This document shows, piece after piece, positions 7,800 to 62,216 of a stretch of 64,000 bases of DNA (positions are counted from its first letter, which is position 1; every line of letters begins with the position of its first letter). The stretch lies in contig OZ024742.1 of the NCBI GenBank assembly GCA_964016885.1, positions 8,184,001-8,248,000 on the forward strand, in the 5' to 3' direction. The notes below the pieces were generated by a model. The model was not told the DNA's origin and did not search any database. It saw only the letters and a program-made list of their open reading frames with translations. The DNA is from Eledone cirrhosa (lineage: Eukaryota). A program made the position numbers and the translations under genes.

Positions 7800-9688
7800 G
7801 TTGCAGTTTAATGTAAGGAATAAGGAGTGTAAATATAGTTTAATATAAGGAATAATAATAATAATGTCTGTTTACAATTGTTTCGCTACTCCATATAATG
7901 TTTCTGGATCAATTGATTATAGATCATTATTGATCTGGTTCAGATGAAGATAAATAACTTAGGTAATATTATGGAGCAGCTCTTCAGAACTTCAAATGAG
8001 ATAATGAAAATATTGATATAGATAAGATGGAATAAGGAATATAAAGTAAAGTAAAGTAAGATGGTTACATGAATGTAATGTTCCATATATTGGTATTTCG
8101 CGAAAGGGGTCCTGGATATGTCTAGTGTCTGCTATAAGCAAGTATTACGCTTCTGTCGAGGCTGTATTAAGGAAGATCTGCCTATGCGTAACAAAATTTC
8201 CACTTAAAGAAATTTACCTTACTAATTAGAGACGGGTTTCAAGGGAGGTAACTCCTTGAGAAGTTAAAATCATAGGTGATTTAAAGCTAAGAAGTGCTAA
8301 TGAGCTTAAGTGAGAGACAATGTAGGGGAGGTAACTTATGATTATCCAAGTATGGGTTAAATATTTAACATGCTAGCTATATGTAATAGCGAGATGTAAT
8401 GACTATGTTGGGTCCAATATTCTGTTGGCGAAGGAATTTGCCCTTCGATGTTGACAGTTAATAGTTACCTCATTTCTATCGTTAGTAGGTTGTGGTCGTG
8501 ATAGAGTTATGTAATAGGCCTCGGTAAGACAGAGATCACAACAGTTTCTTCGTCCATTGAACGCTGTAGATCTAGCCAAGATATCCCATGTTAGTAAGTA
8601 TTCAATGTTGGTTAATTTAAGGTTTTAATGAGCATATCTAGAGATGTCGAACATCTATTGCTAGGGTCTCGGAAGGAAAATCAGTGCGCGTTATAGCGTA
8701 CCTTAAAAGGGTTAGAGGTAGAGCCAATATAGGAGCTGGTATGTGATGCCGTTTTAACTGTGCACCTATAAACTATATTGGGCGTAAGGCATTGTCCGTT
8801 AAGTGGGCATGCATTAGGGTAACGGCAGAAGCAATTACTGTTGCGATTAGTAAGGGTAGGGTTGTTTAAACTATGTGGCTGGTGTGTACTAATAGGATTA
8901 GAGGGGGAGGTATGCTACTAGAGTAAGTATTGGTGTAGTGGCGTGGTGCATTTGAGGGGGTGGTGGTACCGCGGTGTGGGAGTTATATTTTTTAGTTTAT
9001 GATGGTTACTGAATGCGATGTGGCTAGCTAGGTTAGGTGTCGTGGAGAAGGAGATTTTAATATTGTTTTTATTAAAGAGTTTGCAATATCTATGGTTGGG
9101 GGTGGGGTTAGATAGGATGGAGAAGAAGCGTTTAGGGATAGATGAGAGTGGGGGGTTAAGCCATGTGATTTTTCTAGGCCTATTACTTCTAGGGGTTCTA
9201 GTGGAGTTGGCGAGGGCCTTCATAGGGTTATTATTACCGGGGCGTTTGTTATTTGTCATCCCATTGTTCATTCCTATTCTAGGGTTGATTCTGAGTCTGC
9301 TACTAGGAGTGGGAAGTAGGCCTCAGCCATCATTATGGTTCCCTGTATAGGTGTTGTTAATAGTAAAATTCCGGCGTATCTGGCTACATGCTATTGTGTT
9401 TCTAGTTCTAGTGTTAAATTTATTATGGTTGTGGTGAAGTTCTGTGTTATGGCATTTAGGTATGTAGTAAATAGACTGTTCATAACCAGATTCAGAAAGG
9501 GCCTTATTATAATATGCCGCGTGGTTCATAAATATCTCCTCGTTTGCGGATAGCATGGAGATCCTATAAGAGATAGATTTAATGACTGCCCTGATGACTG
9601 CCGGTGGGTGGTTAGAGTGCGGGATAATATACGTAAGTATTTCACCTGGTTTATGATAAGAGTAATATAAGTTGTTGTTAGGAACAAG

Positions 9689-13612: not shown

Positions 13613-16600
13613 ATGGATGTGTTAAGAGTAGGATGTTTGAATGCACGTGGCCTGGGCTAAACTTGGAAGCAAGCAAAGCTTCTAAATGACCTCAGGTCAT
13701 GTAGTATAAATGTAATGGTTATCTGTGAGACTCGAATCAGCGTCATGCGGCAGCTGGCCCCCACCTTCGATGACTTTGAGGTGCATGCATCTCTCTGTCA
13801 ACCTGGAGGTGGGGGTGGGGTTGTCGTGCTGCTGCAAAAACACCTGGGTCTTGCCGTACAGGTTGTGCACTCGGACTCGGAGGGTCGTTTGTTGGTGCTA
13901 GACGTTGGCAGTAGTGAAAGTGCGGCCTTGAGACTGGTCGCCGTCTACTCCCCTTTCGGAGCTGAACGGCCCGACTTCTTCCAGCGTTTGGAGACTTTTC
14001 TGGGAACGTCGCGTTCCCTGCTTCTAGCGGGGGATTGGAATGACATCCTGGATGCACGTTGGGACTATGCAGGAGCATGTCCTAATAGAGGGGGGTGTAA
14101 CAGCCTCAAGGGGTTACTCGACCGTTTTAACTTGGTCGATAGATATCGACTAGATTTTCCAACTGTGCCTACCTGGACTTGGAGAAACCACAGTGGTCAA
14201 TCTAGATCGTACTTAGATAGATTCTTAGTTAGAAGTAAGGATAGGGACATATTAAGCTGTCCAGAAATGCGCACGGTTGGCTACACGGATCACAAATTAG
14301 TGACCTGCGTGGTCAATCTCGAGAAAACACATAGACAGGGTCCCGGTTACTGGAAACTTAATTTGTCGTTACCGGCAAAAGAGACTTACAGAAACCGGAT
14401 TAGCAGATTAGTTAAGGAGAGGTTGACGGGTGCAATCGTCAACAACCGATGGTGGGCATCTCTCAAAAGAGAGATTAGAACAGAATCAATAAGTTATAGC
14501 AAGATGTTAGCTGCCAATAGGAATAGAAACGAGAAAGAATTAACAGGTAAATTAGAAGAGGCAATCAAGAGCGAAGATGTGGCCAGAGTGATGGCATCGA
14601 GGACGGCCTTGAACCAGTTTTTCGATGCAAAGCATGAAGGCTGCGTCATTCGAAGTAAAATACGTGCTCTAGGTAATGAGGGGGCCAAAGCCGTTGGATG
14701 GGCCCGCGTGACAGAAGCTAAAAGTGGAAATCGATCCACCATCCGGTCGTTGCAAGACGAAGATGGACGAGTGATCCGGGAGCCTAAGCAGATGTGCGAG
14801 GCCTTTCAAAAGCACTTTGCCCGATTGTTCGGGGGAGGCGAGGGTCCGGGCCGGGGCGTGGATTTCGGTCCATACCTCGACGGCCTGCCGCGTCTCTCGA
14901 ACAAAGAGGCAGAGTCCTGCGAGGGACCAATCTCGGCTGATGAGATCGGAGATGCGCTGAGCCAATGCAGCAGACGCAAATCTCCAGGTCTCGATGGTAT
15001 ACCTTACGAACTTTATTTAGCAATGCCGGTCTTCTTCTCCGAACTCCTCGAAGCGGTCTACTGCAATTGGCAGCAGAACGGGAAAATTCCTTGTTCTGTA
15101 GCCAAGGGCGTAGTCACGCTGGTGAGGAAGGACGAGAACAAGGGGGATAGTATAAATAATTTTCGGCCCATAACCCTGCTAAACACAGAGTTAAAGATTT
15201 TGGCCAAGGTGTTAGCAAAGAGGTTGGCGCTTGTCGTGGGTGGCCTGGTGGGAGATGCGCAGACATGTGCTATCCCATCCAGGTCCATTCACGATAACCT
15301 CCACCTCATGCGATACATCATAGAGAGGGTTGGCAACAAACCCGGCTTCGGTGGGGCCCTGATCAACTTGGATCAGTCTAAGGCCTTCGATAGGGTCGAC
15401 CATGGTTACCTGGATGCGGTGCTAGCGGCGGCTGGGTTCGGTCCTGTTTTCAGAGGCTGGATCACTGCCCTACATAGCAACCACATCTGTTCTAGGATCA
15501 AGGTGAACGGCTACCTTTCGAAGCCGTTCGAAATCACACGATCCATTCGACAGGGGTGCCCTCTCTCCTCCCTTCTGTACGTATTGACTCTCGAGCCTTT
15601 ACTGAGGAAGTTGGAGTTGTTGCAGGGTATCCCCCTGGAACCAGGATTGAGCAAAGCGGTGTCGGCCTACGCCGATGACGTAACAGTAATGGTATCAACC
15701 GACTCGGAGATCGAGGCGATCGGTACCTTACTGGAGGAGTACGAAAGGTTGTCAGGAGCGAAACTGAACCGGGAAAAATCCATCGGGCTGCAGCTCGGAA
15801 CGTGGAGAGGCAAACCGATGCCTCCTGACGGTGTCGTCGGACACTGGACGGAGGGCCCGGTAAAGTTGCTTGGGGTCTGGTTTGGACCGGACCTCCAGGT
15901 GGAAAAGAACTGGAACGAGGTTACGAACAAGGTGTTTGCACTAACCCAGAAATGGGCCAAGTGTAAGCTGTCCCTAAAAGGCCGGGCGGAGGTGGCGAAC
16001 ATTTACATAGCGTCCGTCACTTACTACCGCCTGACTGTCGTGCCTTGCCCTAAGGAAACACTCACCACCATGGAACGCATGCTCTTCCAATTTCTTTGGA
16101 AGAAGCGTCCTCCTATGGTGAGAAGATCCATCTGCTGCCAACAACCTTCGAAAGGAGGGCTGGGGATGCCGTGGTTGATGATGCGTAGGCACGCATTAAG
16201 GCTACGGCACCTACAGGTATTCCTCACTGGTCAACCGGTGTGGGCTCCGTTCGTGAAACGAGCCTTTCCGAGACTCGTCTCACTCACCGAGCTACAGTCC
16301 TGGGTCAAGCAAAGATCCGGAAAACTGGGAGACTGGCACACTGAGTGTGCTCAGGCGCTCAGGGCTCTCTGGCAAGCGGGCCGGGCCATCGGTGGAGAAT
16401 CCACCTCATCATTCTATAGAGGGCTGGTGGCTAGCAGGGGCGATGACACCCTTGGAGAGTCGCTGGACATGGAGGAAGACGAACTGGCCAGCCTGTTCGG
16501 TAGGACTTTCGGCCCAGGACCAATGGACAACTTCCAGAAGTCACTGGCCTGGCAGTGCTACCGAGGGGCTCTACCCGTTCGAGAGAGGCTCTACAGACAC

Positions 16601-17050
16601 GGGCGCCCGGGCAGGGATCCCTCAAAAAAGATTTGCCCTAGATGCGTGCGTCACGAAGAAACCGTGGCGCACGCATTGGTGCAATGTCCGGGCGTGGCTG
16701 ATCTGTGGGGCTACGCCGAACAACTGCTGTCGCGGGTGGCGCCGATTAAATTGACCGCCGAGTCCGTGATGACAATCAAACCGCCTCCCCTCTTCACAAA
16801 GGAAGCAAAGGCGGTTTTTCTGTGCGTAATAGCCATGTTGAAAGAGGTTGTTTGGTGGACACGATTGAAAGGTCTGAGGTCAGGCAACTTCCTCTCTGGC
16901 CATAGTCTGGTCTACTTCTTCCGATATCACTTCGGAAGAAGGATAAGAATGGAGAGAGAGGTGCTTGGCCACAGGCAGTTTTATGAAAGGTGGGTGATAG
17001 TGGCGAGAATGGCTCGTGTAAATGGGCCTTCTCTGTATACCATCCTGTAG
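13613..17050 (+). CDS. LINE ORF2: APE endonuclease, reverse transcriptase and C-terminal zinc finger; one premature stop at 13658-13660
   Basis: MDVLRVGCLNARGLG* is in frame with the 1111-aa ORF. Motifs: ICET, AGDWN, SYLDRF, TDH (EN); SPGLDG, FRPITLLN, DQSKAFDRV, RQGCPLS, YADD (RT); CPRC..ETVAHALVQC. Confidence 0.93.
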
Positions 17051-32703: not shown

Positions 32704-33387
32704 TATATAATTAGTAAATTTGTATTCCAATGTTACTAAGTAGTTGCATTGGATGGAGTCAACCGACGTCAGAGATTGCTCAACGTATAATAAAGTGTGT
32801 TTTAAAATCCGGAGAAAATATGGAGAAGAAGTTTATGAAATGGAAATGCGGGTATAAAGAATTTATTAGGTAACAATTGTTTCTATAGTGTATGGGTTAC
32901 CTATACCTCGCTATTTGAATAATATAAAAATATTATCATAAACCGAAGGTACACTGTAAGCAAACACACCATGTCGTCAGACCTTTGTATTGGAATGATA
33001 TGAAAATATTTTATACACTAGATAAAAGAGAAAGAAGGAGGTAGGAAGAGAAGGGGAAGTGAGTAAGGTGGAGGGAGTCCTAGGATTTAAGACTGTCAAA
33101 CTAGTAGAGATTGTAAGGAGAGAATGTTTTTGCAGCAGTTAGCTTAATGAGGCGTGTTAGGTTTGGCGGGGGAAGTAAATTCTTCTAGTGGTGTTGTTCG
33201 GACAAAATTTAGTTAAAGGGGTCAAAGTGGTACAGAGTTACAGACAAGTTATTGGGGCTATTATAGTAGCAGGTTATTTCTAAAGGGGTCCAGAAAACAG
33301 TGTTTAGTACTATTATTATAGAAAGCCATATCTTGTGTATAAACATATAAAACAGAAATTTGCAAACGGTGGTGTAAAAAGGTAACA

Positions 33388-34826
33388 TTATATGCATTTA
33401 AAAAAAGAAAAAGTCGTTTTCAAACGATGGTTACAGTATAGTGAACGTTCAATTTTGCTGTTCAAAAGTTTGTTTAGCGACGTTAAAATGCAGTATATCT
33501 CCAAATTGCAGAATTTGCAGAATCGATGATTTTGCTTATATGCAGGCGCAGCAGCAATAATTTGCCAATCAAGGGAGAATGCTTGATTGTTCCTCCGGAG
33601 CTGCCAGGCTTTATCGGCGAGGGTTGTTACGGAGCGCATTTTCTCGTGCCTGATCGAAGATCGATGTTGGTATAGGCGAGCTTTGAAAGAAGTTGCGGTA
33701 CATCCGACGTAATACCATTTGTTGGTTCCGGAATTTATTGTACATCGGTAGACAATATTGCGTGCTAGGCATTGGTTATTCAGTGGGCACGTACCTGGTT
33801 TGGTACAGTTACAATTATTTTTATGTTTTGCAGTAGAATCCTGGATAGTTTGGTGGGGTTGTAGTTGCGTGTTAGTGCGTTGTATGTTGCTATGCTGGTG
33901 CGCTGAGTCATTAGGGATGTACTTATTTAGTATTGCTGAGTTGAGTTTTTTAATTAGTTGTTCTATGTTAGGTGCAGTGGAGTATGAGAGTCTAATGGTG
34001 CGTGAGTTAAAGATTTTATAGTATTTATGTGAAGTTGTAAAGTGTTTATTATTAGTGTATAGAATTGTGAGATAATCTTAGTGCTAATAGAAGTATTGTA
34101 CACGGGGTTATACCATATGTACTCTCTACGTCTGACTCTATTTGCTGGTTTGCACCTATTAGTATGCCTATTGATGTGTGTGTGTGGTGCAATACTAGTT
34201 CGACTTAGATGTGTTTTATTCATAGTACTTATGTGGTTATCGTCTAGATATTCTATTTTCTCGCAGTAACCAGCTTTTCTAAGTGCGTCATTATAATATT
34301 CAGCATGCTCGTTGAAGGTTTGCAAATTAGACGACAGTCGGGAGATCCTTATGGATATATTTTTAGGGATAGATTTAATAATGGAATGGGGGTGGTTCGA
34401 TTTTACATTAACGTACTTGAGATTTTCATTAAGTTTGTGAAATGGCTCTATATTACCGTTATTAAGGTTGAAGGTGACATCCAAGAAGTTGACCACCTTA
34501 AGATTGTGTTCGAAGGTAATATTAAGCCCTAGTTCTAAGAAAAGTTTCCTAATGTTTTTACGTCGCCTTTCTAGGTTTTGTTTGTTCATATTCTTGACTA
34601 GTAGAAGTGTATCGTCGCGGTATATTCCGCCGTGGAGGTCCGTAAATTCGCTCTGGAGTCTGTGGGCTATATAGATCCCAACCAGATCCGTGACCTCCGC
34701 CGAATCATTAGAACCCATCGTAACGTCGAATTCCGAGGGTCTATCTCTGCGGACCCAATAACTATTTTTAAAGTGCACTACTGTGCGTCTAGCTTCAAGT
34801 ATAATATTAATTTCCTCGGACCTCAC
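33388..34826 (-). pseudogene. PLE polyprotein remnant: RT (FDVTMGSNDSAE, GIYRDD, NFLDVTF, SNHP, IWYNP) and GIY-YIG endonuclease
   Basis: ORF 33963-34826 plus a frameshifted C-terminus CNC..CPLNNQCLARNIVYRC..YYVGCTATSFKARLYQH..CKFCNLE..LLNSKIE..CNH. Confidence 0.9.
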
Positions 34827-34896
34827 TAACTAACTCGGACCTCTTTCTTTCTCTTTTATCTAGTGTATAAAATATTTTCATATCATTCCAATACAA

Positions 34897-35013
34897 AGGT
34901 CTGACGACATGGTGTGTTTGCTTACAGTGTACCTTCGGTTTATGATAATATTTTTATATTATTCAAATAGCGAGGTATAGGTAACCCATACACTATAGAA
35001 ACAATTGTTACCT
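34897..35013 (+). ncRNA. Type I hammerhead in pLTR, long stem II (second copy at 32868-32984, minus)
   Basis: AGGT-CTGACGA-CATGGTGTG...TACACTATA-GAAA-CAATTG-TT-ACCT. Confidence 0.85.
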
Positions 35014-35186
35014 AATAAATTCTTTATACCCGCATTTCCATTTCATAAACTTCTTCTCCATATATATTTGTATATATATATATATATACATATATAATAT
35101 ATATATGTATATATATGAATATATATATATATAAATGTATATATATATATATATATAGTTATGTAATAAACAACATAAGGCAATTA

Positions 35187-37571: not shown

Positions 37572-42290
<4,719 letters not shown>

Positions 42291-47349: not shown

Positions 47350-48839
47350 GTAGATAAATCTACCAAAATATACGGTAGTGTCCAATCAGTATGAAGAACT
47401 CAATGTAATCCAAATATCATGAAAAGAGAAGATGCTTTCAAAAAATTTTCGATGAAAATCATAGGAAATCAGAGTCAAGATAATTTAATAAAAACAATGA
47501 ATAAAAACAAAAAAGTTCCTTATATTAAAAATTTCATCATTTTACGATGGTTTCTAGCATATATGTGTTTGTTGGTATGTATATCATATAGATCTATGTA
47601 AAAATATTACAAACTATCAGAGGAAATATACATGCCTTCACATATATATGCTGTCTTCAGAAATGATGAGATTTGTTTATTGAAAAAAACCAACAACGAT
47701 TTAATATAATAGGTCTGTTTGAGATTTTGAATTGACCAATAGAAAAGTATTAAGAGGTCAAGTTGATAGAATAGTAGTAGTAGAAATTTAATTTAGGGGT
47801 AGAGGAGTGCAGACTTATGTTTTGACTGGAAAGAATACTTTGAATGAAAATAATACTTTGGGGATGAAAAGAGGTCAAGCCGGTGAAGGGTACACGAATA
47901 TTTGGTGTTATTAAAGAATAATGTTAAAAACGAAGGAAAGTAAAATTTTAGTGTAAGGGTATTAGTGAGAAATACCAATCTTATTTAAACCACAAGGAAT
48001 CTATATCTATAACAAGAAATTAAATTAATTGATAGGTATACTTATAGGGATACATTTCTATTAATTCATATGGATGTGATAAATAAGAATTAGATGTTAT
48101 TAAAGAATGTTGTTAAAAACGAAGGAAAATAAAATTTGGGGATAAGGATAGTAGTGAGAAATACCAATCTTATATAAACTACAAGGAATCTAGATTCATA
48201 ACAGGAAATTAAATTAATTTATATGTATACTTTTAGGTATTAATTTTAGGAAAAAAGAGCTGTAAGAGGGAAATAAAATTATGAAGTTCTCTGTAGTAAA
48301 GTACTAATTATAGGTTAACTAAATTAAAAAAACTAATTATAATAATTTGTAAAATATAAGTGTAATTAATTAGGTTTATAATATTTGAAGGTTCTTCTAA
48401 TTCTATGATTGCAAGATATAATTAATTCTTGTCGCTTATTTAATAGGATATCCTTAGATTTCATTATTTCAAAAAGTTTCTGGGAGCATAATTTACACTC
48501 ATATCTGTTATTTTGATAAGCGGTGGCCTTTTTGAGCACACTCCAGGTCAGGTTGTAATCGATATATTTCTTTCTATAATGATTAATTGTTTCAGTCAAG
48601 GATGTTGTATTAGCTAATACGGCATTTTTAAATCTATGTTTGTGAGTATTAAATCTTACTTTAAATTGGGTAGACGTAGCTCCTATATATGAATAAGTGG
48701 AGTCCTTAGTGCTAATTTTACATAGTCTATAAATTTTACATTTATAGACTATGTAAAATATATCCTAGAAACGATCGTAAAATGATGAATTTTTTAATAT
48801 AAGGAACTTGTTCTTTGTTTTTATTCATTGTTTTTATTA

Positions 48840-52773: not shown

Positions 52774-53450
52774 ATAAAACAAAACCAACCCCTAAAGTAA
52801 GATAGGGAAGTATTAGTGCTTGTTCATGTTCTCTTTGTTTTCACATGCTGGAAACGACATGTTGGAATAGAAGGAATATCAATATGATAGTAATATTGGT
52901 ACTCCGTCGGTTACGACGAGGAGATTTACAGTTGTTACGATCAATTTTCGTGAAATTCCTTTCACAGACTCGCGTACCCAAAGCGTAGTTCTCAGGGAGA
53001 TTCAGCTTGACATATATTGTGACAACTGTAGCCATTCGAATTACAGATTCAACTGGTTTTTGCCGACTGGATGGACTCGAACAAGGTGAAATGAAGGGTC
53101 TTGCTCAAGAACACAACATGCAGTTGGGACTCACAAGCTTGCGACCATGATTCGGGTATCCTAACCAATCTGCCACCTACCTTCACGTTAGATTTATAAT
53201 ATAATCAGCTTTTCCTCTTCCGCAATATTTTGACCTTGTTTCTATATTAGCAACCATTAGTATTTCCAGTGTGTGGTCATTAAGGGTGACAAGGAACAGA
53301 TATACGGATTACAATCCAGTCTAGGAAAATTTCCCTACATGCTCTATGTTTGTCCTTGCTGTGTTGATTGGTGCTTTCACAATAACAACACATATTTAGT
53401 TCAACGTTACTATCCTCGTCTATCTAAAATTGATATGCTCTCTTTAACTC

Positions 53451-53512
<62 letters not shown>

Positions 53513-53521
53513 CTCTCACTC

Positions 53522-53570
<49 letters not shown>

Positions 53571-53729
53571 CAAGCTTCAAATATTTATATATATATATGT
53601 ATTCGCATACACACACGCTTACATACACACACAGACACACAAACATAGACACAAACATGCATTTATATATATATATATATATATAAATATATATATATAT
53701 ACACATATATACATATATATATATATATG

Positions 53730-53841
<112 letters not shown>

Positions 53842-53844
53842 TAT

Positions 53845-54571
53845 AAAAGCTTTCTCCGATATTGTATTTATTTATTTACTTTTGGTGCAGCAGATTTGAA
53901 ATTTTCCCGATATAAGGTTAGGATTTCTTTGTTTGTTTTTTATATATGAATATTGATTGTTCCTTATATCTCATTCTATTATTTTGCCCGAGAAAATATC
54001 TGTGTGTGTCATCAAATGTTGTACACACATAGATATTTTTTCAATTTCCAATTGAGTTCTTAGCACGTGGCCTGAATTCCTTTTAGAGTTCATTGTCATG
54101 CGCATGTATTGTTTTTTTTGGCGGTAATTAACTTCCTCATTTTTGAATCAGTTTGAGCATTTCTTTAGAACTGCTGGACTGGCAACCTGACAGATACCTC
54201 AGGCACAGATGATGATTATCGCTAAATACTGATGTTGGTTAGATTATCAATATTAGTATTATTGGGGCACCCACTGATGAATTATAAGAGCCCACTTGAA
54301 TATATATCTATTGATGGTATACAAGCTCCTACATAGATTGGTATAATTTAACCCAAATTGTAGGAATCCTGTAATGAAACGAGACGTCCGTCTGGGAAGA
54401 GATATATTCGATATGTCTCATATGAAATAATACAGCCAATTTTCCACGCAATACTTTTAGTTAGCACCCCGAACGCATGATTGGGAATAAAATCACTTAT
54501 TTCCTAATGTTTGTTGAGTGAGTTGGAATTTGGCCGGAGTATCGCTAAAAAGCTTTCTCCGATATTGTATT

Positions 54572-54575
<4 letters not shown>
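53845..54575 (+). mobile_element. Terminally redundant 703-bp HHR monomer (retrozyme-like)
   Basis: 28-bp direct repeat AAAAGCTTTCTCCGATATTGTATTTATT at 53845 and 54548; homologous to the ~996-bp unit; inside (TA)n. Confidence 0.82.
54270..54396 (+). ncRNA. Type I hammerhead ribozyme, long stem II
   Basis: CCCA-CTGATGA-ATTATA...TGTAAT-GAAA-CG-AGACGTC-CG-TC-TGGG; GUC site; palindromic GACGTC in loop III. Confidence 0.85.
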
Positions 54576-54637
<62 letters not shown>

Positions 54638-54639
<2 letters not shown>

Positions 54640-55304
54640 AGTTAAGAACTCAGGGTAGTCCCTTACAATTAAATAGCTCTAAGAAAAAAGCTTTTCCGAG
54701 CCGTACAATATAATTGAATAAACAAGAAAGATGAACACTAATATAAACATACATGGGTTCGAATCGTAAGGAGTGAAATTTTCTAGGGTGAAAAAATACT
54801 AACTACAGCAATATAGTTTGTTATCCTTAACGTTAAATATTAAATTAAGAAAAATTAATAAAAATAACAGACCTATATTGGGAAAAATGCATGGTAACAA
54901 CTAGTCCTGTCAGCCAGGCTGCTATTTTTAGCGGCAGGCAATTTCGAGACAAGCTGGGTTCCGAGTGACACGTGCGATAATTCATATCGTACACAATTTA
55001 TTCTCTAATATTTTTAGAAGTGAAAGGATCACTAATTTCTCAACAACTACTGAGGAGCAGAGAAACGTCAAAACTTCACTTAATAAGTCGTTGCGAAACA
55101 GTCTCCAACACTGTCTAGTTGTTAAAAGGCATTTTTGCCCAATATAGGTCTGTTATTTTTCTTTATTTTTCTTAATTTAATATTTAAAGTTAAGGATAAC
55201 AAACTATATTGTTCTAGTTAGTATTTTTTCACCCTAGCAAACTTTAGTCCTTACGATTCGAACACATATATGTTTATATTAGTGTTCATCTCTCTTGTTT
55301 ATTC

Positions 55305-55308
<4 letters not shown>
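54638..55308 (-). mobile_element. Asymmetric fold-back insert with conserved tail
   Basis: ~180-bp inverted arms (54710-54890 and 55130-55308), a 240-bp spacer and a ~70-nt left tail. Confidence 0.82.
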
Positions 55309-55340
<32 letters not shown>

Positions 55341-55344
<4 letters not shown>

Positions 55345-55548
55345 ATAATCATAAATTTGAAGACCAAAATCCAAAGAGGGCTCGATAAGGATAAATATAT
55401 ATCAAATATATAAGAACCATAGAGCAAATATTTATTAAAATAACAGATTAAAGTTTAAGCAAAGAATCGCAAAGATCTTCTGAAGATCCCGTTAAGGGTG
55501 AAAGCAGCGATTCTTTGCTTATTGCTCAAACTTTAATCTGTTATTTTA

Positions 55549-55555
<7 letters not shown>
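55341..55555 (-). mobile_element. Fold-back insert with HHR core at 55480-55520 (family also at 9967-10085, 23396-23455, 32036-32122)
   Basis: Arms TATTTATTAAAATAACAGATTAAAGTTT..GCAAAGAATCGC and inverse; CTGAAGA-T-CCC-GTTAA-GGG-T-GAAA-GCA..TGC-TT. Confidence 0.75.
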
Positions 55556-55622
<67 letters not shown>

Positions 55623-56245
55623 GTAAAAATAAATTATCGAGAATCGGAATTACGGCCCGCGAAATAACGAAACACAATCTTCGAAATGCATGGCAAAGGT
55701 TTCAATAGTTTGGGTAAACCAGAGCTATAACTAACGTTTAAATACCAACACATAGAGACAATGCTTAAAATCATTCGCACAGCCGAAAAAACGACCAGGA
55801 AAATTCGGGTCATACAAATAATAAATTAAATGAATGAAAGATCATACCCGGACCTGCTAGAAGGATGTTATATTCTAGCATTTTGGTTTCTGCGGTTCCT
55901 AAATCAGTTACCGTCAGCCTACATAAAAAATATCTGGCTTCTGGCAAAATGATGAACGAGGAAGCAACTTTCTCCACAGGCATTTCGTTCAAAAATACAA
56001 AGGCGCCCGTTACTAAATCCACGTGGGGTCTAGCAAGGGAGCGAACCCCTATATTAGGCGAATGAATTCAGTAGTGTATATATTTGTAAAAATACAAAAT
56101 ATCACATATCGAATTAGAGTTCTCAACAGACGGGTTAAAATTAACATGAGCTATTCATCAGTCAATAAGATCAACTAAAAAATCAATAAAATTAACTGGT
56201 CAATAGCTAAAGACTGGAGATAAATACAAATAAATATTGTATATG

Positions 56246-56335
<90 letters not shown>

Positions 56336-56538
56336 AACCAGTAAGACCCCGACAGCTGAGCTCAAGCCGTTTCGACGGCTAATTCTGGACTCAGTCCAGA
56401 ATTACCAGAATTACCCGTCGAAACGGCTTGAGCTCAGCTGTCGGGGTCATACTGGTTCCTATTACCCACTCTACTACCTCAAGTATTGAGTACTTTGGTG
56501 CGTTATGGTCCACCTGGTTCCTTACCACATTTCCTTCG

Positions 56539-56580
<42 letters not shown>

Positions 56581-56796
56581 AAGGTTTAGTAAATAATGAA
56601 AAAGTTTCAAAATAAATTTTAAAAAATTGACTTTACCTACTATAGTTACCTTTACCGATCGGTTTCGAATCCCAAAAATAAAACGGAGACCATACAGCCT
56701 TCGTTGCAAAGAGAGATTCTCGTCAGAAGGTTCTTTTCATTCAAAGAATATAAAATTCCTGAATTTAAATCACAAACTAGCGCTATCCAAAACTGT

Positions 56797-59220
56797 GAAA
56801 TTTCCTCAGTCAAAAGACTGCTCGAATTTCAAATTTGGCGGTCATTCGATACGTGAGGGAGCAGCTTAGCAGACACGATTTTTAACTGCGGTAAGAATTT
56901 TTTATTATATCAAAGTTTAATGGGCTTCCACTGAAGATTTATAAGTGCCCACCTAAATATATTCTTACATGAATATATGTTAGTCTTCTACATAAACTGG
57001 AAACATTCTCCCAATTTGTAGAAAACTTATAATGAAACAATTGTTTGGAAAGAGAGATATGTTTTAACTTTAATTATATCTCATAAAATAATACAACTGG
57101 CTTTCCACAAAATACATATAGTTAGCACCCCAAACACTTAAATTGGGTTATACTAACATATAACCTAATGTTTGTTGAGTGAGATGGTTACCAGTCGGAG
57201 TTTAGCGTTAAGCTTTCTCTGATATTGTATTAAATATGTTACTCTTGATTTGGCCAGAGGTACTTATTTCCATGTACCTTATAAACATGACTTTCCGTAT
57301 TTGTTACTGTTGTGAGATATGGAGGTTTTTTGGTTGTCACTTCTCTGTTTTTAGCCTAAAAAAATATATATATATATATGCGTATGTAAATAATTACATG
57401 CATACATTTATTTTTTTAAATTAATTGAGTTCTTAACACGTGTAATTCATAATAGTTTTAAATAACTAATTAATCCGCGTGTATTAAATATTTTACTCTT
57501 AATTTGGCCAGAGATTTACATTCCCAATCACCTTTAAAGCTTAATCTTCAGTATTTGCTGCGGTGATGTGATGCGGTTTGTTATTTTGGTTTCACCTCTG
57601 TTTTTAGCCTAACAAAATATCTATATGCGTGTGTAATTAATACACGCATACATTCATTTTTTAAATTTCAATTGAGTTCTTAACACGTTTTATTGATAAT
57701 GTTTTTGAAAAAACTAATTAACCCGAGTGTATATTATTTTTTTCTTTTCTCGTATATCGTCGTTGTCTCCCTTTCCCGCTTCGTGACGCTATGAAATTTC
57801 CTCAGTCAAAAGACTGCTCGAATTTCAAATTTGGCGGTCATTCGATACGTGAGGGAGCAGCTTAGCAGACACGATTTTTAACTGCGGTAAGAATGTTTTA
57901 TTATATCAAAGTTTAATGGGCTTCCACTGAAGATTTATAAGTGCCCACCTAAATATATTCTTACATGAATATATGTTAGTCTTCTACATAAACTGGAAAC
58001 ATTCTCCCAATTTGTAGAAAACTTATAATGAAACAATTGTTTGGAAAGAGAGATATATTTTAACTTTAATTATATCTCATAAAATAATACAACTGGCTTT
58101 CCACAAAATACATATAGTTAGCACCCCAAACACTTAAATTGGGTTATACTAACATATAACCTAATGTTTGTTGAGTGAGATGGTTTCCAGTCGGAGTTTA
58201 GCGTTAAGCTATCTCTGTTATTGTATTAAATATGTTACTCTTGATTTGGCCAGAGGTACTTATTTCCAGGTACCTTATAAACATGACTTTCCGTATTTGT
58301 TACTGTTGTGAGATATGGAGGTTTTTTGGTTGTCACTTCTCTGTTTTTAGCCTAAGAAAAAATATATATATGCGTATGTAAATAATTACATGCATACATT
58401 TATTTTTTAAATTAATTGAGTTCTTAACACGTGGAATTGATAATAGTTTTAAATAACTAATTAACCCGCGTGTATTAAATATTTTACTCTTAATTTGGCC
58501 AGAGATTTACATTCCCAATCGCCTTTAAAGCGTAACCTTCAGTATTTGCTGCGGTGATTTGATGCGGTTTGTTATTTTGGTATCACCTCGGTTTTTAGCC
58601 TAACAAAATATCTATATGCGTGTGTAATTAATACACGCATACATTCATTTTTTAAATTTCAATTGAGTTCTTAACACGTTGGATTGATAATGTTTTTGAA
58701 AAAACTAATTAACCCGAGTGTATATTATTTTTTTATTTTCTCGTGTATCGTGGTTGTCTCCCTTTCCCGCTTCGTGACGCTATGAAATTTCCTCAGTCAA
58801 AAGACTGCTGGAATTTCAAATTTGGCGGTCATTCGATACGTGAAGGAGCAGCTTAGCAGACACGATTTTTAACTGCGGTAGGAATTTTTTCTTATATCAA
58901 AGTTTAATGGGCTTCCACTGAACATTTATAAGTGCCCACCTAAATATATTCTTACATGAATATATGTCAGGCTTCTACATAAACTGGAAACATTCTCCCA
59001 ATTTGTAGAAAACTTATAATGAAACAATTGTTTGGAAAGAGAGATATATTTTAACTTTAATTATATCTCATAAAATAATACAACTGGCTTTCCACAAAAT
59101 ACATATAGTTAGCACCCCAAACACTTAAATTGGGTTATACTAACATATAACCTAATGTTTGTTGAGTGAGATGGTAACCAGTCGGAGTTTAGCGTTAAGC
59201 TATCTCTGTTATTGTATTAA

Positions 59221-59222
<2 letters not shown>
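56797..59222 (+). mobile_element. ~996-bp tandem repeat (2.4 units), one long-stem-II HHR per unit
   Basis: Unit starts TGAAATTTCCTCAGTCAAAAG at 56797, 57792 and 58783; no ORF; 3' end in (TA)n; internal ~250-bp duplication. Confidence 0.9.
56926..57050 (+). ncRNA. Type I hammerhead, long stem II (copies 57922-58046; 58913-59037 with mutated core CTGAACA)
   Basis: TTCCA-CTGAAGA-T-TTATAAGT...ACTTATAA-T-GAAA-CAATTG-TT-TGGAA; predicted GUU cleavage after 57045. Confidence 0.88.
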
Positions 59223-59252
<30 letters not shown>

Positions 59253-60060
59253 GATAGTGTTTTAGAAATGTCATCTTTCGTCTAAACAATAGCTGACATT
59301 CTGCAATTCTCATTTGTCGGTACTTTTTGAGTTGCCGACATCAACATCACCAAAAATAACAACATAATTATCCGCATCCACATCATCATTATTATTGTAT
59401 CCATAATCGTCATCATCATCATCATCATCATCATCGTCATCACCATCACCATCACCATCATAATCATCATCATCATCATCATCATCATAATCTCCATCAT
59501 TATCATCTGGGACTCGATGAAGATAAACAAATGAACACCTCATTCCGAGACATTTTAGTTTGGAGGCTGTTGAGATTCATATTTTACCTGAGATTTCCAG
59601 AGATTTCTATTTTATCTGAGTATGATACCTGTGGATAGGAGCTCCGAGTTCAAAAGCCATGGAGATTACTTTTGTCTTTCAATATTTTGGGGTTGTTAAA
59701 ATCTAGTAAAAATCTAGTACTGAGGTTGATTCGAGCTCTACATCCCTTTCTCACTTACTCTCTATTTCTCTCTTTCCTCTCTGGAAGAAATTGGATGGGT
59801 TCAATCCTTGTGAGAGGATCACCTTCGATAGGTTTACATTACTTGAGCCATGCCGTATATCACTAGGCCGCCCCTAACACCCCACTAGGAGTTACATCTT
59901 CATACATACATTATCGGGGGCCGTTGAGGGTCCAAGGAAACACTCTGAGCTGCATCTCTCTATGATGAGTGAACTGGGGTCGATTTAATCGAATTTCCCC
60001 TCCCCCAGATTAATGGCATTGTGCCTATATCAGACACAATTATTATTATTAACAGTAGTA

Positions 60061-62216
60061 CGAGAACAAGAGGGACATATGAGACAATGTCAGGCCCATA
60101 ACACTGCTCAACACAGAGTTTAAGTTTCGGCCAAGGTGTTAGCGAAGAGGCTGGCGCTTGTCGGGGATTTGGTCGGGGAGGCGCAAACTTGCGCAATCCC
60201 AGCCAGGTCCATACACCAGACCCTGCACCTAATGCGATACATCATAGAGAGGGTAGGGTGTAAACCTGGCTTCGGTGGGGCTCTGATCAATTTAGATCAA
60301 TCGAAAGCATTCGATAGGGTCGACTATAGGTACCTGGAGGCTGTCCTCAAGGCGGCTAGCTTCGGCCCCGTCTTCAGAAGCTGGATCGCTGCAATGCACA
60401 GCGGCACCTGCTCAATGGTCAAAATTAATGGCCACCTCTTCGAACCGTTTCAGGTCTCCCGATCGGTCCGTCAAGCGTGCCCTCTCTCCTCCCTCCTGTA
60501 CGTATTGACTCTGGAGCATTTACTGCGGAAGCTGGAGCTGTTGCAGGGCATCCCGCTCGAACCGGGACGCGGAAACGCTGTGTCGGCTTATGCGGACGAC
60601 ATCACCGTGATGGGGTCGGACACCTCAGTAATCGAGGTGATCGGCAACTTATTGGAGGAATATGAAAGGTTGACGGGAGCAAAACTTAACCCGGAAAAGT
60701 CGGTGGGCTTGCAACTCGGCACCTGGAGAAGCAAGTCCATGCCGTCCAACAGCGTCGTTAGGTGCTAGACGGATGGACCGGTAAAGTTGCTCGGGGTTTG
60801 GTTCGGACCAGACCTCCAGGTGGATAAGAATTGGGACGAGGTGACGGGCAGGGTAGCCAGTCTCACCCAGAAATGGGCTGGGATGAAGCTAACGCTGAAA
60901 GGTCGGGCGGAGGTGGCAAACGCGTACATCGCGTCCGTCATCTTCTACCGCCTGACCGTCGTACCTTGTCCCCGTTCGCGCCTTGCCATCTTGGAGCGGC
61001 TCCTCTTCAAATTCTTGTGGAGGGGTCAGGTTCTGCTGGTGAGGCGGTCCATCTGCTGCCAGCACCCTCTACGTGGAGGGCTGGGCGTGCCGTGGCTAAT
61101 GATGCGCAGGCACGCGCTGAGGCTGCGGCATCTCCAGATATTCTGCCTAAACGGTGAACAGGTGTGGTCGCCGTTTGTCAGACGGGCCTTTCCGCAGCTC
61201 GTTTCTTTGAGCTGCAGTCCTGGGTCAAGAAGAGACCGAGGCTGAGTGACTGGCATCTGGAAAATTGCCAGACACTCACTGCCCTCTACCAGGCGGGAAA
61301 TGCGGTCAGTGGAACTTCCACTCTCAAGTCCTATAGAGGATTAGTGGTGGGAAAAGTGGGACGACGCACTCGGAGAGGCCCTGGGAGTCGACGAAGTCGA
61401 ACTAACCAGTCTCTACTGGAGGACTTTCGAGTCGGGGACGATGGATAATTTCCAAAAATCCCTCGCTTGGCAGTGTTACCGGGGGGGGGGGGGGCACTGC
61501 CGGTTCGAGATAAATTCTGCAGGCACGGTAGTGCTGTCAGACGGACCTGCCCCAGATGCGCGCAGAGCGACGAAACCGTTCTGCACGCACTCGTCCAGTG
61601 TCCGTGCATTACTGACTTGTTGAGTTATGTTGAACAGCTGTTGTCGCGTGTAGAACGGATCCGGCTATCGTCCGAGTCCATAGTGAAGATCGACCCGCCG
61701 CCTTCTTTTGGTCAGGAAGGGCAGGCAATGTTCCTCTGTCTGGTGGCAGTAGCGAAAGAGGTTGTATGGTGGACGAGGTTGAAAAGACTGAAGACAGACA
61801 CTTTTCACTTCGGCCAATCCCTCATCAACTTTTTCAAGTTTCACTTGGAAAGGAAGGTGAGGGTGGAGAGAGAAGTGCTGCCCCCCAGTACATTTGCTGA
61901 AAGGTGGGTGAATGTGGCGAGAATGGCCCGTGTGAGTGGGCCTACTCTGGTCATGCGGCTGTAGGTAGGTAAATTTGAGGAGGAGAGGGGTGCCCTTCCA
62001 GTGTGCTCTCGAAGCGTCGGGTCGTTCAGGATTGGTGGGGTACCTGAGCGAACCCTGGGTGGTCATCCCCCCTATTGGGGAATTTTTTCTTGTAATTTCA
62101 TTGTTACTTTGTTAATGTGATTCATATTGTTTACTCGATTTTTCTGTAAAACCCCACTATCCCAGTCTTTTACATTGTCCCCTATATGTCGGCCCTTGTG
62201 ACCAATAAATGAAATC
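60061..62216 (+). mobile_element. 5'-truncated, decayed Tx1/L1-clade LINE (RT to 3'UTR), different subfamily
   Basis: DQSKAFDRV, RQACPLS, YADD, CPRC..HALVQC with stops and frameshifts. TSD ATTATTATTA(A/G)CAGTAGTA at 60042-60060 and 62217-62235. Confidence 0.93.

What the first reader, a model, noticed from the sequence alone, without database searches (positions are those of the whole stretch)
56797..59222. Unusually large (~1 kb) HHR tandem repeat
Seen: 2.4 head-to-tail units of 991-996 bp without an ORF, each with one HHR bearing a ~95-nt stem II. An internal ~250-bp duplication (57235-57480 vs 57495-57730) roughly accounts for the size gain over the 703-bp relative. Known: described animal non-LTR retrozyme monomers are mostly a few hundred nt. 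Inference: a second, larger retrozyme family that grows by internal duplication.
Basis: partly seen in the sequence, partly recalled or inferred. Interest (0 to 1): 0.75.

Follow-up and report, generated by a model that had tools for sequence, protein, structure and literature searches.

The report
One-kilobase hammerhead retrozyme, Penelope-style insertions
This 2.4-unit repeat is one insertion of an abundant, non-coding, roughly 1-kb mobile element carrying a hammerhead-ribozyme motif; the way its many copies begin and end suggests it is likely cut by its own ribozyme and then copied into TA-repeat DNA by a Penelope-type reverse transcriptase.

Summary
Window 56793-59222 is 2.44 head-to-tail units (996, 991 and 443 bp, about 97% alike) with no ORF. 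Each unit has a type-I hammerhead (HHR) motif with a 96-nt helix II. Units 1 and 2 have an intact core; unit 3 has a G8C change. The ~250-bp internal duplication is real.

It is not a local satellite. The 3-Gb genome holds 502 exact copies of its 27-nt end motif.
- **3' ends:** 77 of 80 sampled insertions end at the same unit position (443-449), next to (TA)n.
- **5' ends:** these vary, but 22 of 80 fall at or within 17 nt downstream of the predicted HHR cut. The related 703-bp family shows the same (12 of 57).
- **Large array:** one 64-kb array of 80 units mixes 747-nt (one A segment) and 997-nt (two A segments) units.

Best reading: a non-autonomous retrozyme, probably written into TA microsatellites by a Penelope-like element's enzymes from an internal start site, largely from ribozyme-cut RNA.

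Not shown: RNA, cleavage, circles, or the partner element. Rfam does not detect the HHR.

A 2026 preprint already reports animal retrozyme consensus lengths up to 972 bp. A sequence look-up of the scan's notes did not find this family, but the scan has noted other retrozyme families in this genome.

The parts
56540..56577 (.). (TA)19 remnant of the target microsatellite on the left side
56578..56792 (-). Fragment of a different HHR element in opposite orientation (HHR motif 56731-56648, CTGACGA, helix II 53 nt, palindromic helix III ACCGATCGGT). Its 3' end abuts the (TA)19 and its 5' end abuts the 5' end of the 1-kb array.
56793..57788 (+). Unit 1 (996 nt)
57789..58779 (+). Unit 2 (991 nt), used as the reference for unit coordinates 1-991
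58780..59222 (+). Unit 3, partial (443 nt). It stops at the family's fixed 3' end (unit 443-445).
56926..57050 (+). HHR motif 1, core intact. Predicted cut between 57045 and 57046.
57922..58046 (+). HHR motif 2, core intact. Predicted cut between 58041 and 58042. With motif 1 it brackets one 996-nt monomer (57046-58041).
58913..59037 (+). HHR motif 3 with CTGAACA (G8 changed to C). A G8C change abolished cleavage in the PAc element's HHR (PMC11167929).
57226..57479 (+). A1 copy of the internal duplication in unit 1 (58222-58470 in unit 2). It begins with the same 12 nt as the element's 3' end.
57480..57730 (+). A2 copy of the internal duplication in unit 1 (58471-58721 in unit 2)
59033..59222 (+). 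Segment from the predicted cut to the 3' end (about 190 nt; also 57046-57237 and 58042-58233). With the HHR it is the best-conserved module between subfamilies.
59223..59252 (.). TA-rich target sequence on the right side
53846..54575 (+). The related 703-bp family: one copy of 1.04 units between two (TA)n runs. HHR motif at 54270-54396 (CTGATGA, A-U at 10.1/11.1), predicted cut after 54392.

Best explanation
This array is one insertion of a dispersed, non-coding, roughly 1-kb retroelement with a hammerhead motif (a metazoan-type retrozyme), which is likely mobilised by a Penelope-like element. Shown directly: copies share one fixed 3' end inside the unit, 192 nt downstream of the predicted ribozyme cut. 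They lie in (TA)n microsatellites, have variable 5' ends, and are often longer than one unit. Inferred: a copy holding two HHR motifs, such as this one, would be transcribed. The HHRs would cut after unit position 253, probably by pairing two motifs through the palindromic helix III. This would release unit-length RNA, some of which may be ligated into circles. A PLE endonuclease/reverse transcriptase that targets (TA)n would nick the microsatellite and start cDNA synthesis internally at unit 443-445. Synthesis would run either to the cut 5' end, giving copies of about 185 nt or about 1,180 nt, or through an uncut or ligated junction, giving multimers such as this 2.44-unit copy. The 5' junction would form by TA microhomology. 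The unit grew from about 747 to about 997 nt by duplication of the 250-nt A segment.
For: Family size: 3045 first-look candidates for one unit. The 27-nt end motif has 502 exact hits against 0 for the reversed control.

3' ends: 25 of 28 best-scoring loci and 77 of 80 loci sampled by the end motif end at unit 441-449, followed by TA-rich DNA.

Lengths: 32 of 80 are at least 1 unit and 2 of 80 at least 2 units.

5' ends: 22 of 80 start at unit 253-270, where 1.45 are expected (binomial P = 5e-20). L064 and L136 start exactly at the predicted cut. Of the 80 insertions, 14 are 170-200 nt long and 8 are 1130-1200 nt long.

Independent replicate in the 703 family: 12 of 57 starts fall at 517-538, with the cut after 519 (P = 2e-7).

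HHR: the motif exceeds chance (8 hits against 0.025). The core CTGAAGA is kept in 49 of 54 aligned copies. Three relatives differ at the free position N7 (A, C, U) while keeping the rest of the core. The HHR fold lies 1.6 kcal/mol above the MFE. The named structure pairs in 91.7% of cells across the two families, against 30-46% when slid.

Conservation: against the array subfamily, the HHR is 94% and the cut-to-end segment 95% identical, while the rest is 87-90%.

PLE context: 10,597 first-look GIY-YIG candidates, with all 150 scored above Pfam's cut-off. One 938-aa ORF has RT followed by a C-terminal GIY-YIG domain. An abundant PLE family also ends next to (TA)n.

Literature (sections or passages read): internal RT initiation and AT-rich targets in a PLE (PMC11167929); (TA)n targets for PLEs (PMC8557442); an axolotl retrozyme HHR with a U.U at the base of helix II that cleaves, and does so better as a dimer (PMC7229834).
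Against: Transcription, cleavage and circles are therefore untested.

Rfam does not detect the HHR. Positions 10.1/11.1 are U.U rather than the G-C called highly conserved in PLE HHRs.

PLE-type HHRs cleave poorly in vitro. In the one PLE studied, HHR cleavage was not needed for insertion, and no reads ended at the cut.

The 5' hot spot peaks at unit 265 (ATATAT), 11 nt downstream of the cut. Only 2-3 copies start at 253-257, and smaller clusters sit at other TA-rich patches. TA microhomology therefore contributes, and a transcription start site is not excluded.

No partner PLE was identified. There is no blastn similarity to 43 PLE loci. The TA-targeting PLE family examined has no CUGANGA in its last 630 nt.

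Covariation rests on two sequences: 3 compensatory pairs, and 54 of 500 shuffles do as well.

The 64-kb array of mixed unit types is better explained by DNA-level unequal exchange than by a single reverse transcription.
Confidence: 0.68

Rival explanations
1. It is a PLE-mobilised non-autonomous element, but the hammerhead motif is an inactive relic. On this view the 5'-end hot spot reflects a transcription start site and/or TA microhomology at the ATATAT patch, not ribozyme cleavage.
For: Most hot-spot copies start at unit 265, where the element's ATATAT merges with target (TA)n. Other TA-rich patches also collect 5' ends: 559-576 and 431-443 in the 991 family, and 350 and 427 in the 703 family. 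Positions 10.1/11.1 are U.U. Rfam finds nothing. The HHR was dispensable for PAc insertion in vitro.
Against: The hot spot is 4-5 times larger than at the longer TA run at unit 566-577 (22 against about 5 of 80). It recurs next to the predicted cut in a second family. A few copies start exactly at the cut. The HHR domain is among the best-conserved parts between subfamilies, and only the free position N7 varies.
Confidence: 0.2
2. The units are pseudo-LTRs or internally deleted remnants of an autonomous Penelope-like element, not an independent family.
For: The preprint 10.64898/2026.07.22.740005 (Results read) argues that animal retrozymes derive from PLE pLTRs. The geometry of an HHR followed by a downstream RT start site matches PAc.
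Against: Among 108 fetched loci (7 places were fetched twice, so 101 are distinct), flanks are (TA)n or unrelated DNA. Only one (L078) lies beside a PLE copy, and there it is separated by TA repeats and other sequence. The unit has no ORF. It has no similarity to 43 PLE loci.
Confidence: 0.09
3. It is an ordinary satellite or segmental tandem repeat amplified only at the DNA level.
For: One locus is a 64-kb array of 80 units, with blocks of two unit types at 94-97% identity. That pattern fits unequal crossing-over.
Against: There are hundreds of dispersed copies with the same 3' end, variable 5' truncation, and insertion into (TA)n on many chromosomes. Even the long array ends at unit 445.
Confidence: 0.03

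Closest known systems
Metazoan non-LTR retrozymes (Cervera and de la Pena 2020, PMC7229834, passages read; Li, Clavereau and Pollet 2026 preprint, 10.64898/2026.07.22.740005, abstract and Results read)
   Same: Non-coding, low-GC (31%) head-to-tail units. One type-I HHR per unit. Copy sizes from partial units and dimers to large multimers, dispersed through a PLE-rich genome. Weak helix III with a palindromic loop, implying action as a dimer. A U.U at the base of helix II, as in axolotl HHR_Amex2.
   Different: The unit is 991-997 nt, against 150-450 bp in the 2020 paper. It sits just above the 972-bp maximum consensus length in the 2026 preprint. Helix II is a 96-nt Y-shaped domain that Rfam models do not score. 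RNA and circles are not shown here. Most copies are single, 5'-truncated insertions rather than long arrays.
[quoted passage not shown] 2024, PMC11167929, main text read)
   Same: Short helix I (5 bp), long helix II stem (8 bp) and a small palindromic helix III. A fixed insertion end that lies downstream of the HHR inside the repeating unit. AT-rich or (TA)n targets. Partial-tandem copies with 5' truncation.
   Different: No RT/EN ORF. 10.1/11.1 is not G-C, and there is no single bulged base after A9. The distance from cut to RT start is about 190 nt, against about 85-92 nt computed from the PAc figures. No sequence similarity to the PLE copies sampled.
Plant LTR retrozymes (Cervera et al. 2016, PMC4918200; De la Pena and Cervera 2017, PMC5680766; search-listing abstracts only)
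   Same: Similar RNA size class (circRNAs of 600-1000 nt, per the PMC5680766 abstract). Non-autonomous, HHR-bounded unit.
   Different: Plant elements carry type III HHRs in LTRs and have GC above 55% (legend of figure 1 in PMC7229834). Here the HHR is type I, there are no LTRs, and GC is 31%.

Membership tests
Metazoan non-LTR retrozyme | Head-to-tail tandem units without LTRs or coding capacity | tested here: met
   Units of 996, 991 and 443 nt. No ORF of 120 aa or more.
Metazoan non-LTR retrozyme | One type-I hammerhead motif per unit, with the conserved core | tested here: met
   Own descriptor scan. Core intact in 2 of 3 window units and in 49 of 54 aligned copies. Rfam gives no hit. 10.1/11.1 is U.U.
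Metazoan non-LTR retrozyme | Self-cleavage of the transcript at the HHR site | tested here: inconclusive
   Indirect evidence only: 22 of 80 and 12 of 57 insertion 5' ends lie at or just downstream of the predicted cut. No biochemical or RNA data.
Metazoan non-LTR retrozyme | Expression as unit-length linear and circular RNA | not testable with these tools
Only a predicted circular fold is available (MFE -229.1, z = -4.7 against 60 shuffles).
Metazoan non-LTR retrozyme | Dispersed, mobile copies in a genome that holds PLEs | tested here: met
   for the copies. for PLEs (10,597 first-look GIY-YIG candidates; an RT plus GIY-YIG ORF).
Autonomous Penelope-like element (or its pLTR) | RT and GIY-YIG ORF within or attached to the repeat | tested here: not met
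   No ORF in the unit. The flanks of 108 loci are not PLE, except for one neighbouring copy.
PLE-type insertion signature | Fixed 3' end from internal RT initiation, AT-rich target, 5' truncation and partial tandems | tested here: met
   The internal copy of the 12-nt end motif is never used as an end (0 against 117).
Canonical hammerhead (Rfam type I models) | Score at or above the Rfam gathering threshold | tested here: not met
   The 96-nt helix II and the U.U pair are the likely reasons (inference).

The most novel reading that the evidence does not exclude
The genome preserves a quantitative fossil record of in vivo ribozyme cutting. About a quarter of insertions in two related families begin at the hammerhead cut. 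On this reading, cut linear RNAs rather than circles are the main templates of Penelope-type reverse transcription. It would also mean that a hammerhead with a 96-nt three-way-junction helix II and a non-G-C 10.1/11.1 pair, invisible to current models, is catalytically active. The 80-unit array would capture the step by which the element grew from 747 to 997 nt.
Probability: 0.35. Interest if true: 0.7.

Novelty: new variant of a known kind. Interest (0 to 1): 0.55.

Why it matters
Animal retrozymes are thought to spread through ribozyme-cut, circular RNAs copied by Penelope-like enzymes. The papers read here propose this route rather than show it, and the one in vitro PLE study found the HHR dispensable. 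In this family the start and end points of hundreds of insertions can be read against a predicted cut site, which makes three things directly testable:
- whether the ribozyme cuts in vivo;
- whether reverse transcription starts internally at one position;
- whether the templates are linear or circular.

It also shows that HHR descriptors and Rfam models miss ribozyme candidates with large helix II insertions, so retrozyme censuses may undercount long-unit families. Finally, it gives a concrete example of unit growth by internal duplication.

Tried and rejected
- **Rfam:** no hammerhead, either at gathering score over the whole window or at E<=10 over 53000-60500. The listed miRNA and pestivirus hits are TA-repeat or palindrome artefacts.
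- **RNA-editing scars:** no excess of A>G over T>C (12.3 against 11.4 per 1000 sites). G>A exceeds C>T (35.9 against 21.3), but those counts share ancestry, and private changes are 54 against 39. I draw no conclusion from this.
- **Two-armed (inverted) insertions, reported by other notes for smaller families:** same-family inverted arms occur in 1 of 108 loci, so this family is essentially single-armed.
- **Partner PLE:** blastn of both units against 30 and then 13 PLE loci gave only low-complexity hits. A 703-family motif near a PLE (L158/L159) is an independent 202-nt insertion beside 5'-truncated inverted PLE fragments.
- **Covariation:** with two families only, there are 3 compensatory pairs and 54 of 500 shuffles do as well. 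This is compatible with the structure but not proof.
- **Literature search for retrozyme plus cephalopod:** the only listed paper was PMC8557442. A broader four-term search was uninformative. I did not test which animal this genome belongs to.
- **Rows set aside:** L002 overlaps L001, and both are the window itself. L159 was a context stretch. In one search, ten loci were anchored on an internal motif, so their total lengths were taken from BLAST chains instead.

Full report
**1. The observation**

Window 56793-59222 holds three copies in register, with spacings of 996 and 991. Unit 1 against unit 2 gives 968 matches, 23 mismatches and 5 gap columns. The partial third unit (443 nt) differs from the other two at 12 and 10 positions. 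No stop-to-stop frame of 120 aa or more lies between 53872 and 60123.

The internal duplication is real. It runs 57226-57479 against 57480-57730 (D7/D8), at 75-81% identity over about 265 nt, and it is present in every one of the 30 loci first examined.

Rfam finds no hammerhead, either at gathering score or at E<=10 in 53000-60500. A descriptor scan of my own finds, on the + strand of units 1 and 2:
- helix I TTCCA/TGGAA;
- the core CTGAAGA;
- a 96-nt helix II, with a U.U mismatch at 10.1/11.1 followed by 8 bp;
- GAA, then helix III ACAATTGT (2 bp capped by a palindromic tetraloop);
- H17 = U, with the predicted cut after 57045 and after 58041.

A stricter version of the scan gives 8 hits in the window, against a mean of 0.025 (maximum 1) in 40 dinucleotide shuffles. 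Unit 3 reads CTGAACA. A G8C change abolished cleavage in the PAc element's HHR (PMC11167929). The isolated 125-nt domain reaches the HHR fold at -20.9 kcal/mol, against an MFE of -22.5.

**2. It is a dispersed family, not a local repeat**

One unit searched against the window's own 3.0-Gb genome gave 3045 first-look candidates, of which 40 were scored. Of the 28 best loci outside the window, 25 end at unit 441-445 and are followed by TA-rich DNA; their 5' ends vary.

The 27-nt end motif has 502 exact matches (272 forward, 230 reverse) and 0 for the reversed control. I took the first 100 listed matches on two chromosomes. They form 88 clusters, and I fetched the first 80. This sample is conditioned on an intact end motif but not on length.
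- 77 of 80 end at unit 443-449.
- 32 of 80 are at least one unit long.
- 2 of 80 are at least two units long.

The window's 2.44-unit copy therefore sits in the upper tail of the length distribution.

Same-family inverted arms are rare: 1 of 108 fetched loci (7 places were fetched twice, so 101 are distinct). The 12-nt end motif recurs at the start of the second A segment but is never used as an end: 0 TA-joined matches against 117 internal ones. The start site must therefore be defined by more than those 12 nt.

**3. The 5' ends point at the predicted ribozyme cut**

An anchored wrap-around extension places 22 of 80 5' ends at unit 253-270. The cut is predicted after position 253. A uniform distribution would give 1.45 (binomial P = 5e-20).
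- Two copies start exactly at the cut (L064, L136).
- One starts at 257 and three at 263.
- Most start at 265-266, where the element's ATATAT merges with target (TA)n.

Matching length classes appear: 14 copies of 170-200 nt and 8 of 1130-1200 nt, which is one unit more.

The related 703-bp family has 572 exact end motifs against 0 for the control. It repeats the pattern: 12 of 57 sampled 5' ends lie at 517-538, with the cut predicted after 519 (expected 1.8, P = 2e-7).

TA microhomology clearly contributes. Smaller clusters lie at other TA-rich patches: unit 559-576 and 431-443 in the 991 family, and 350 and 427 in the 703 family. But the cluster next to the cut is 4-5 times larger than the one at the longer TA run. 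A transcription start site at the same place cannot be excluded without RNA data.

**4. Conservation**

The 991 and 703 units align only over the HHR-to-3'-end module (319 nt, 70%) and part of the A segment. Both helix II inserts fold on their own into the same Y shape.

The named HHR structure pairs in 91.7% of 72 cells across the two families, against 30-46% when the partners are slid. There are 3 compensatory pairs, but with only two sequences 54 of 500 shuffles do as well.

Within the family, 49 of 54 aligned HHR copies keep CTGAAGA, and 2 have A at 10.1. Units within one insertion are usually more alike (median about 98%, range 86-100%) than units from different loci (about 91-97% identity to the window unit).

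The predicted circular monomer is more structured than shuffles: -229.1 against -187.6 +/- 8.8 kcal/mol, z = -4.7, with 60% of bases paired.

**5. A large array, and unit growth**

The comparator search revealed a cluster on another chromosome. I fetched it in full. It is one array of 80 unit starts over about 64 kb, and it ends at unit 445.
- 62 intervals are about 747 nt (one A segment) and 17 are about 997 nt (two A segments), arranged in blocks.
- Identity is 96.5% among short units and 94.5% among long ones.
- Its HHR core is CTGACGA. Thirty-five of the 80 units match a strict HHR pattern, and 12 carry CTAACG.
- Its commonest HHR string differs from the window's at 4 of 125 positions, one of which is N7.

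Against the window unit, the HHR domain is 94% identical and the cut-to-end segment 95%, while the rest is 87-90%. The three relatives thus differ at the only free core position (A, C, U) and keep the rest of the core.

In the dispersed sample, 44 of 46 unit intervals carry both A copies and 2 (L107, L122) carry one. With the 703 family as outgroup (one A segment), growth by duplication is the simplest reading. Deletion between the 12-nt direct repeats could produce the same junction.

**6. Who moves it**

The genome gives 10,597 first-look candidates for the GIY-YIG domain. All 150 that were scored are above Pfam's cut-off. One 938-aa ORF has RT followed by a C-terminal GIY-YIG domain. An abundant PLE family, found beside one retrozyme copy (L078), ends at a fixed sequence followed by (TA)n in the copies shown.

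So TA-targeting PLE machinery exists here. No PLE sampled shares sequence with the unit, though (30 + 13 loci), and that PLE family has no CUGANGA in its last 630 nt. The partner is not identified.

The copies are not attached to coding PLEs. Twenty-three of 108 loci hold any non-repetitive ORF of 200 aa or more in their flanks. Of the 15 flank ORFs I scanned, seven gave RT-like matches (two over Pfam's cut-off) and one gave a weak GIY-YIG match.

**7. Comparison with what is known**

- Metazoan retrozymes are described as 150-450-bp tandem units with type-I HHRs. [quoted passage not shown]
- Axolotl HHR_Amex2 has a 2-bp helix III with a tetraloop and a U.U at the base of helix II. It cleaves 22% in an hour, and better as a dimer. 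This matches the core features seen here.
- A 2026 preprint (abstract and Results read) reports consensus lengths of 51-972 bp and derives retrozymes from PLE pLTRs.
- PLE HHRs have short helix I, long helix II and a small palindromic helix III, with G10.1-C11.1 highly conserved and low activity in vitro (PMC4209133, passages read).
- A purified PLE starts reverse transcription internally, downstream of its HHR, at AT-rich targets. Its HHR is dispensable in vitro (PMC11167929, main text read).
- (TA)n is a preferred target of some PLE clades (PMC8557442, passages read).

The present family has the retrozyme/PLE organisation. It differs in unit size, which is at or just above the published maximum. 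It also differs in a 96-nt three-way-junction helix II with a non-G-C closing pair, and in the clarity of its insertion footprints.

**8. Verdict**

This is a real, ordinary-in-kind but unusual-in-form retrozyme family. Shown here: the family structure, the fixed internal 3' end, the (TA)n target, the 5'-end hot spot beside the predicted cut in two families, and the duplication polymorphism. Inferred: ribozyme activity, the RNA forms, and the PLE partner.

Other readers' notes on this genome describe smaller retrozyme families (310, 422 and 467 nt) with Penelope footprints. A sequence look-up of the notes did not find this 1-kb family.

Noticed in passing
window 56578-56792 (- strand) abutting 56793: A 215-nt fragment of a different HHR element lies head-to-head with the 1-kb array. 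Its 3' end touches the left (TA)19 and its 5' end touches the array's 5' end, with no TA between them. This is the geometry expected if both sides of one DNA break primed cDNA from two different RNAs. It could also be two separate insertions.
   Followed up: partly
window 37938-41930: CTGACGA cores lie at 422-nt spacing: eight on the + strand (38970-41924) and two on the - strand (37938, 38360). This suggests a two-armed array of a 422-nt HHR unit, like one described in another note on this genome. My descriptor did not call these HHRs.
   Followed up: no
window 32861-32991 (-) and 34890-35020 (+): Two identical 131-nt HHR motifs (CTGACGA, helix II 90 nt, C.A at 10.1/11.1, helix III ACAATTGT) lie in inverted orientation about 1.9 kb apart. 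They flank ORFs 33388-34829 (-), which have no Pfam match.
   Followed up: partly
window 47527-47676 (-) and 7860-7998 (-): Two further long-helix-II HHR motifs (99 and 96 nt). The one at 7860-7998 has a canonical G-C at 10.1/11.1 and the same ACAATTGT helix III. Several families in this genome share the architecture.
   Followed up: no
window 54708-54887 and 55133-55312: 180-nt inverted repeats (93% complementary) flank an HHR motif at 55042-55123 (CTGAGGA, helix I 8 bp).
   Followed up: no
window 56335-56458: A near-perfect GC-rich palindrome of about 120 nt. It produces spurious mir-127 hits on both strands.
   Followed up: no
window 13661-17050 (+) and 60124-61964 (+): A 1129-aa LINE-type ORF (endonuclease/exonuclease/phosphatase domain, RVT_1, zf-RVT) and a broken second copy.
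   Followed up: partly
G000 C2:312267356-312331092 (L211-L218): A 64-kb array of 80 units of this family mixes 747-nt and 997-nt units. The short units form a run of 44, and eight long units sit at the 3' end. Twelve units carry a G5-to-A core change (CTAACG).
   Followed up: yes
L140 and L121 (G000 C2): In two insertions of 'cut site plus one unit' length, the two copies of the repeated 180-nt part are only 86-88% alike. In five other insertions of the same class they are 98-100% alike. This hints at occasional template switching between different RNAs.
   Followed up: partly
L095, L108, L115, L092, L116 (991 family); window 53846-54575, L186, L188 (703 family): Copies of almost exactly 1.0 or 2.0 units, with 5' starts 2-28 nt before the 3'-end position. 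This would be expected if cDNA synthesis stopped after a full turn of a circular template. TA microhomology at the same spot is an alternative.
   Followed up: partly
L078 2150-2310 and L006 upstream flank: Two insertions have 5' flanks that share a ...GATCCCGTTAAG... sequence rather than TA repeats. These may be chimeric junctions with another repeat.
   Followed up: no
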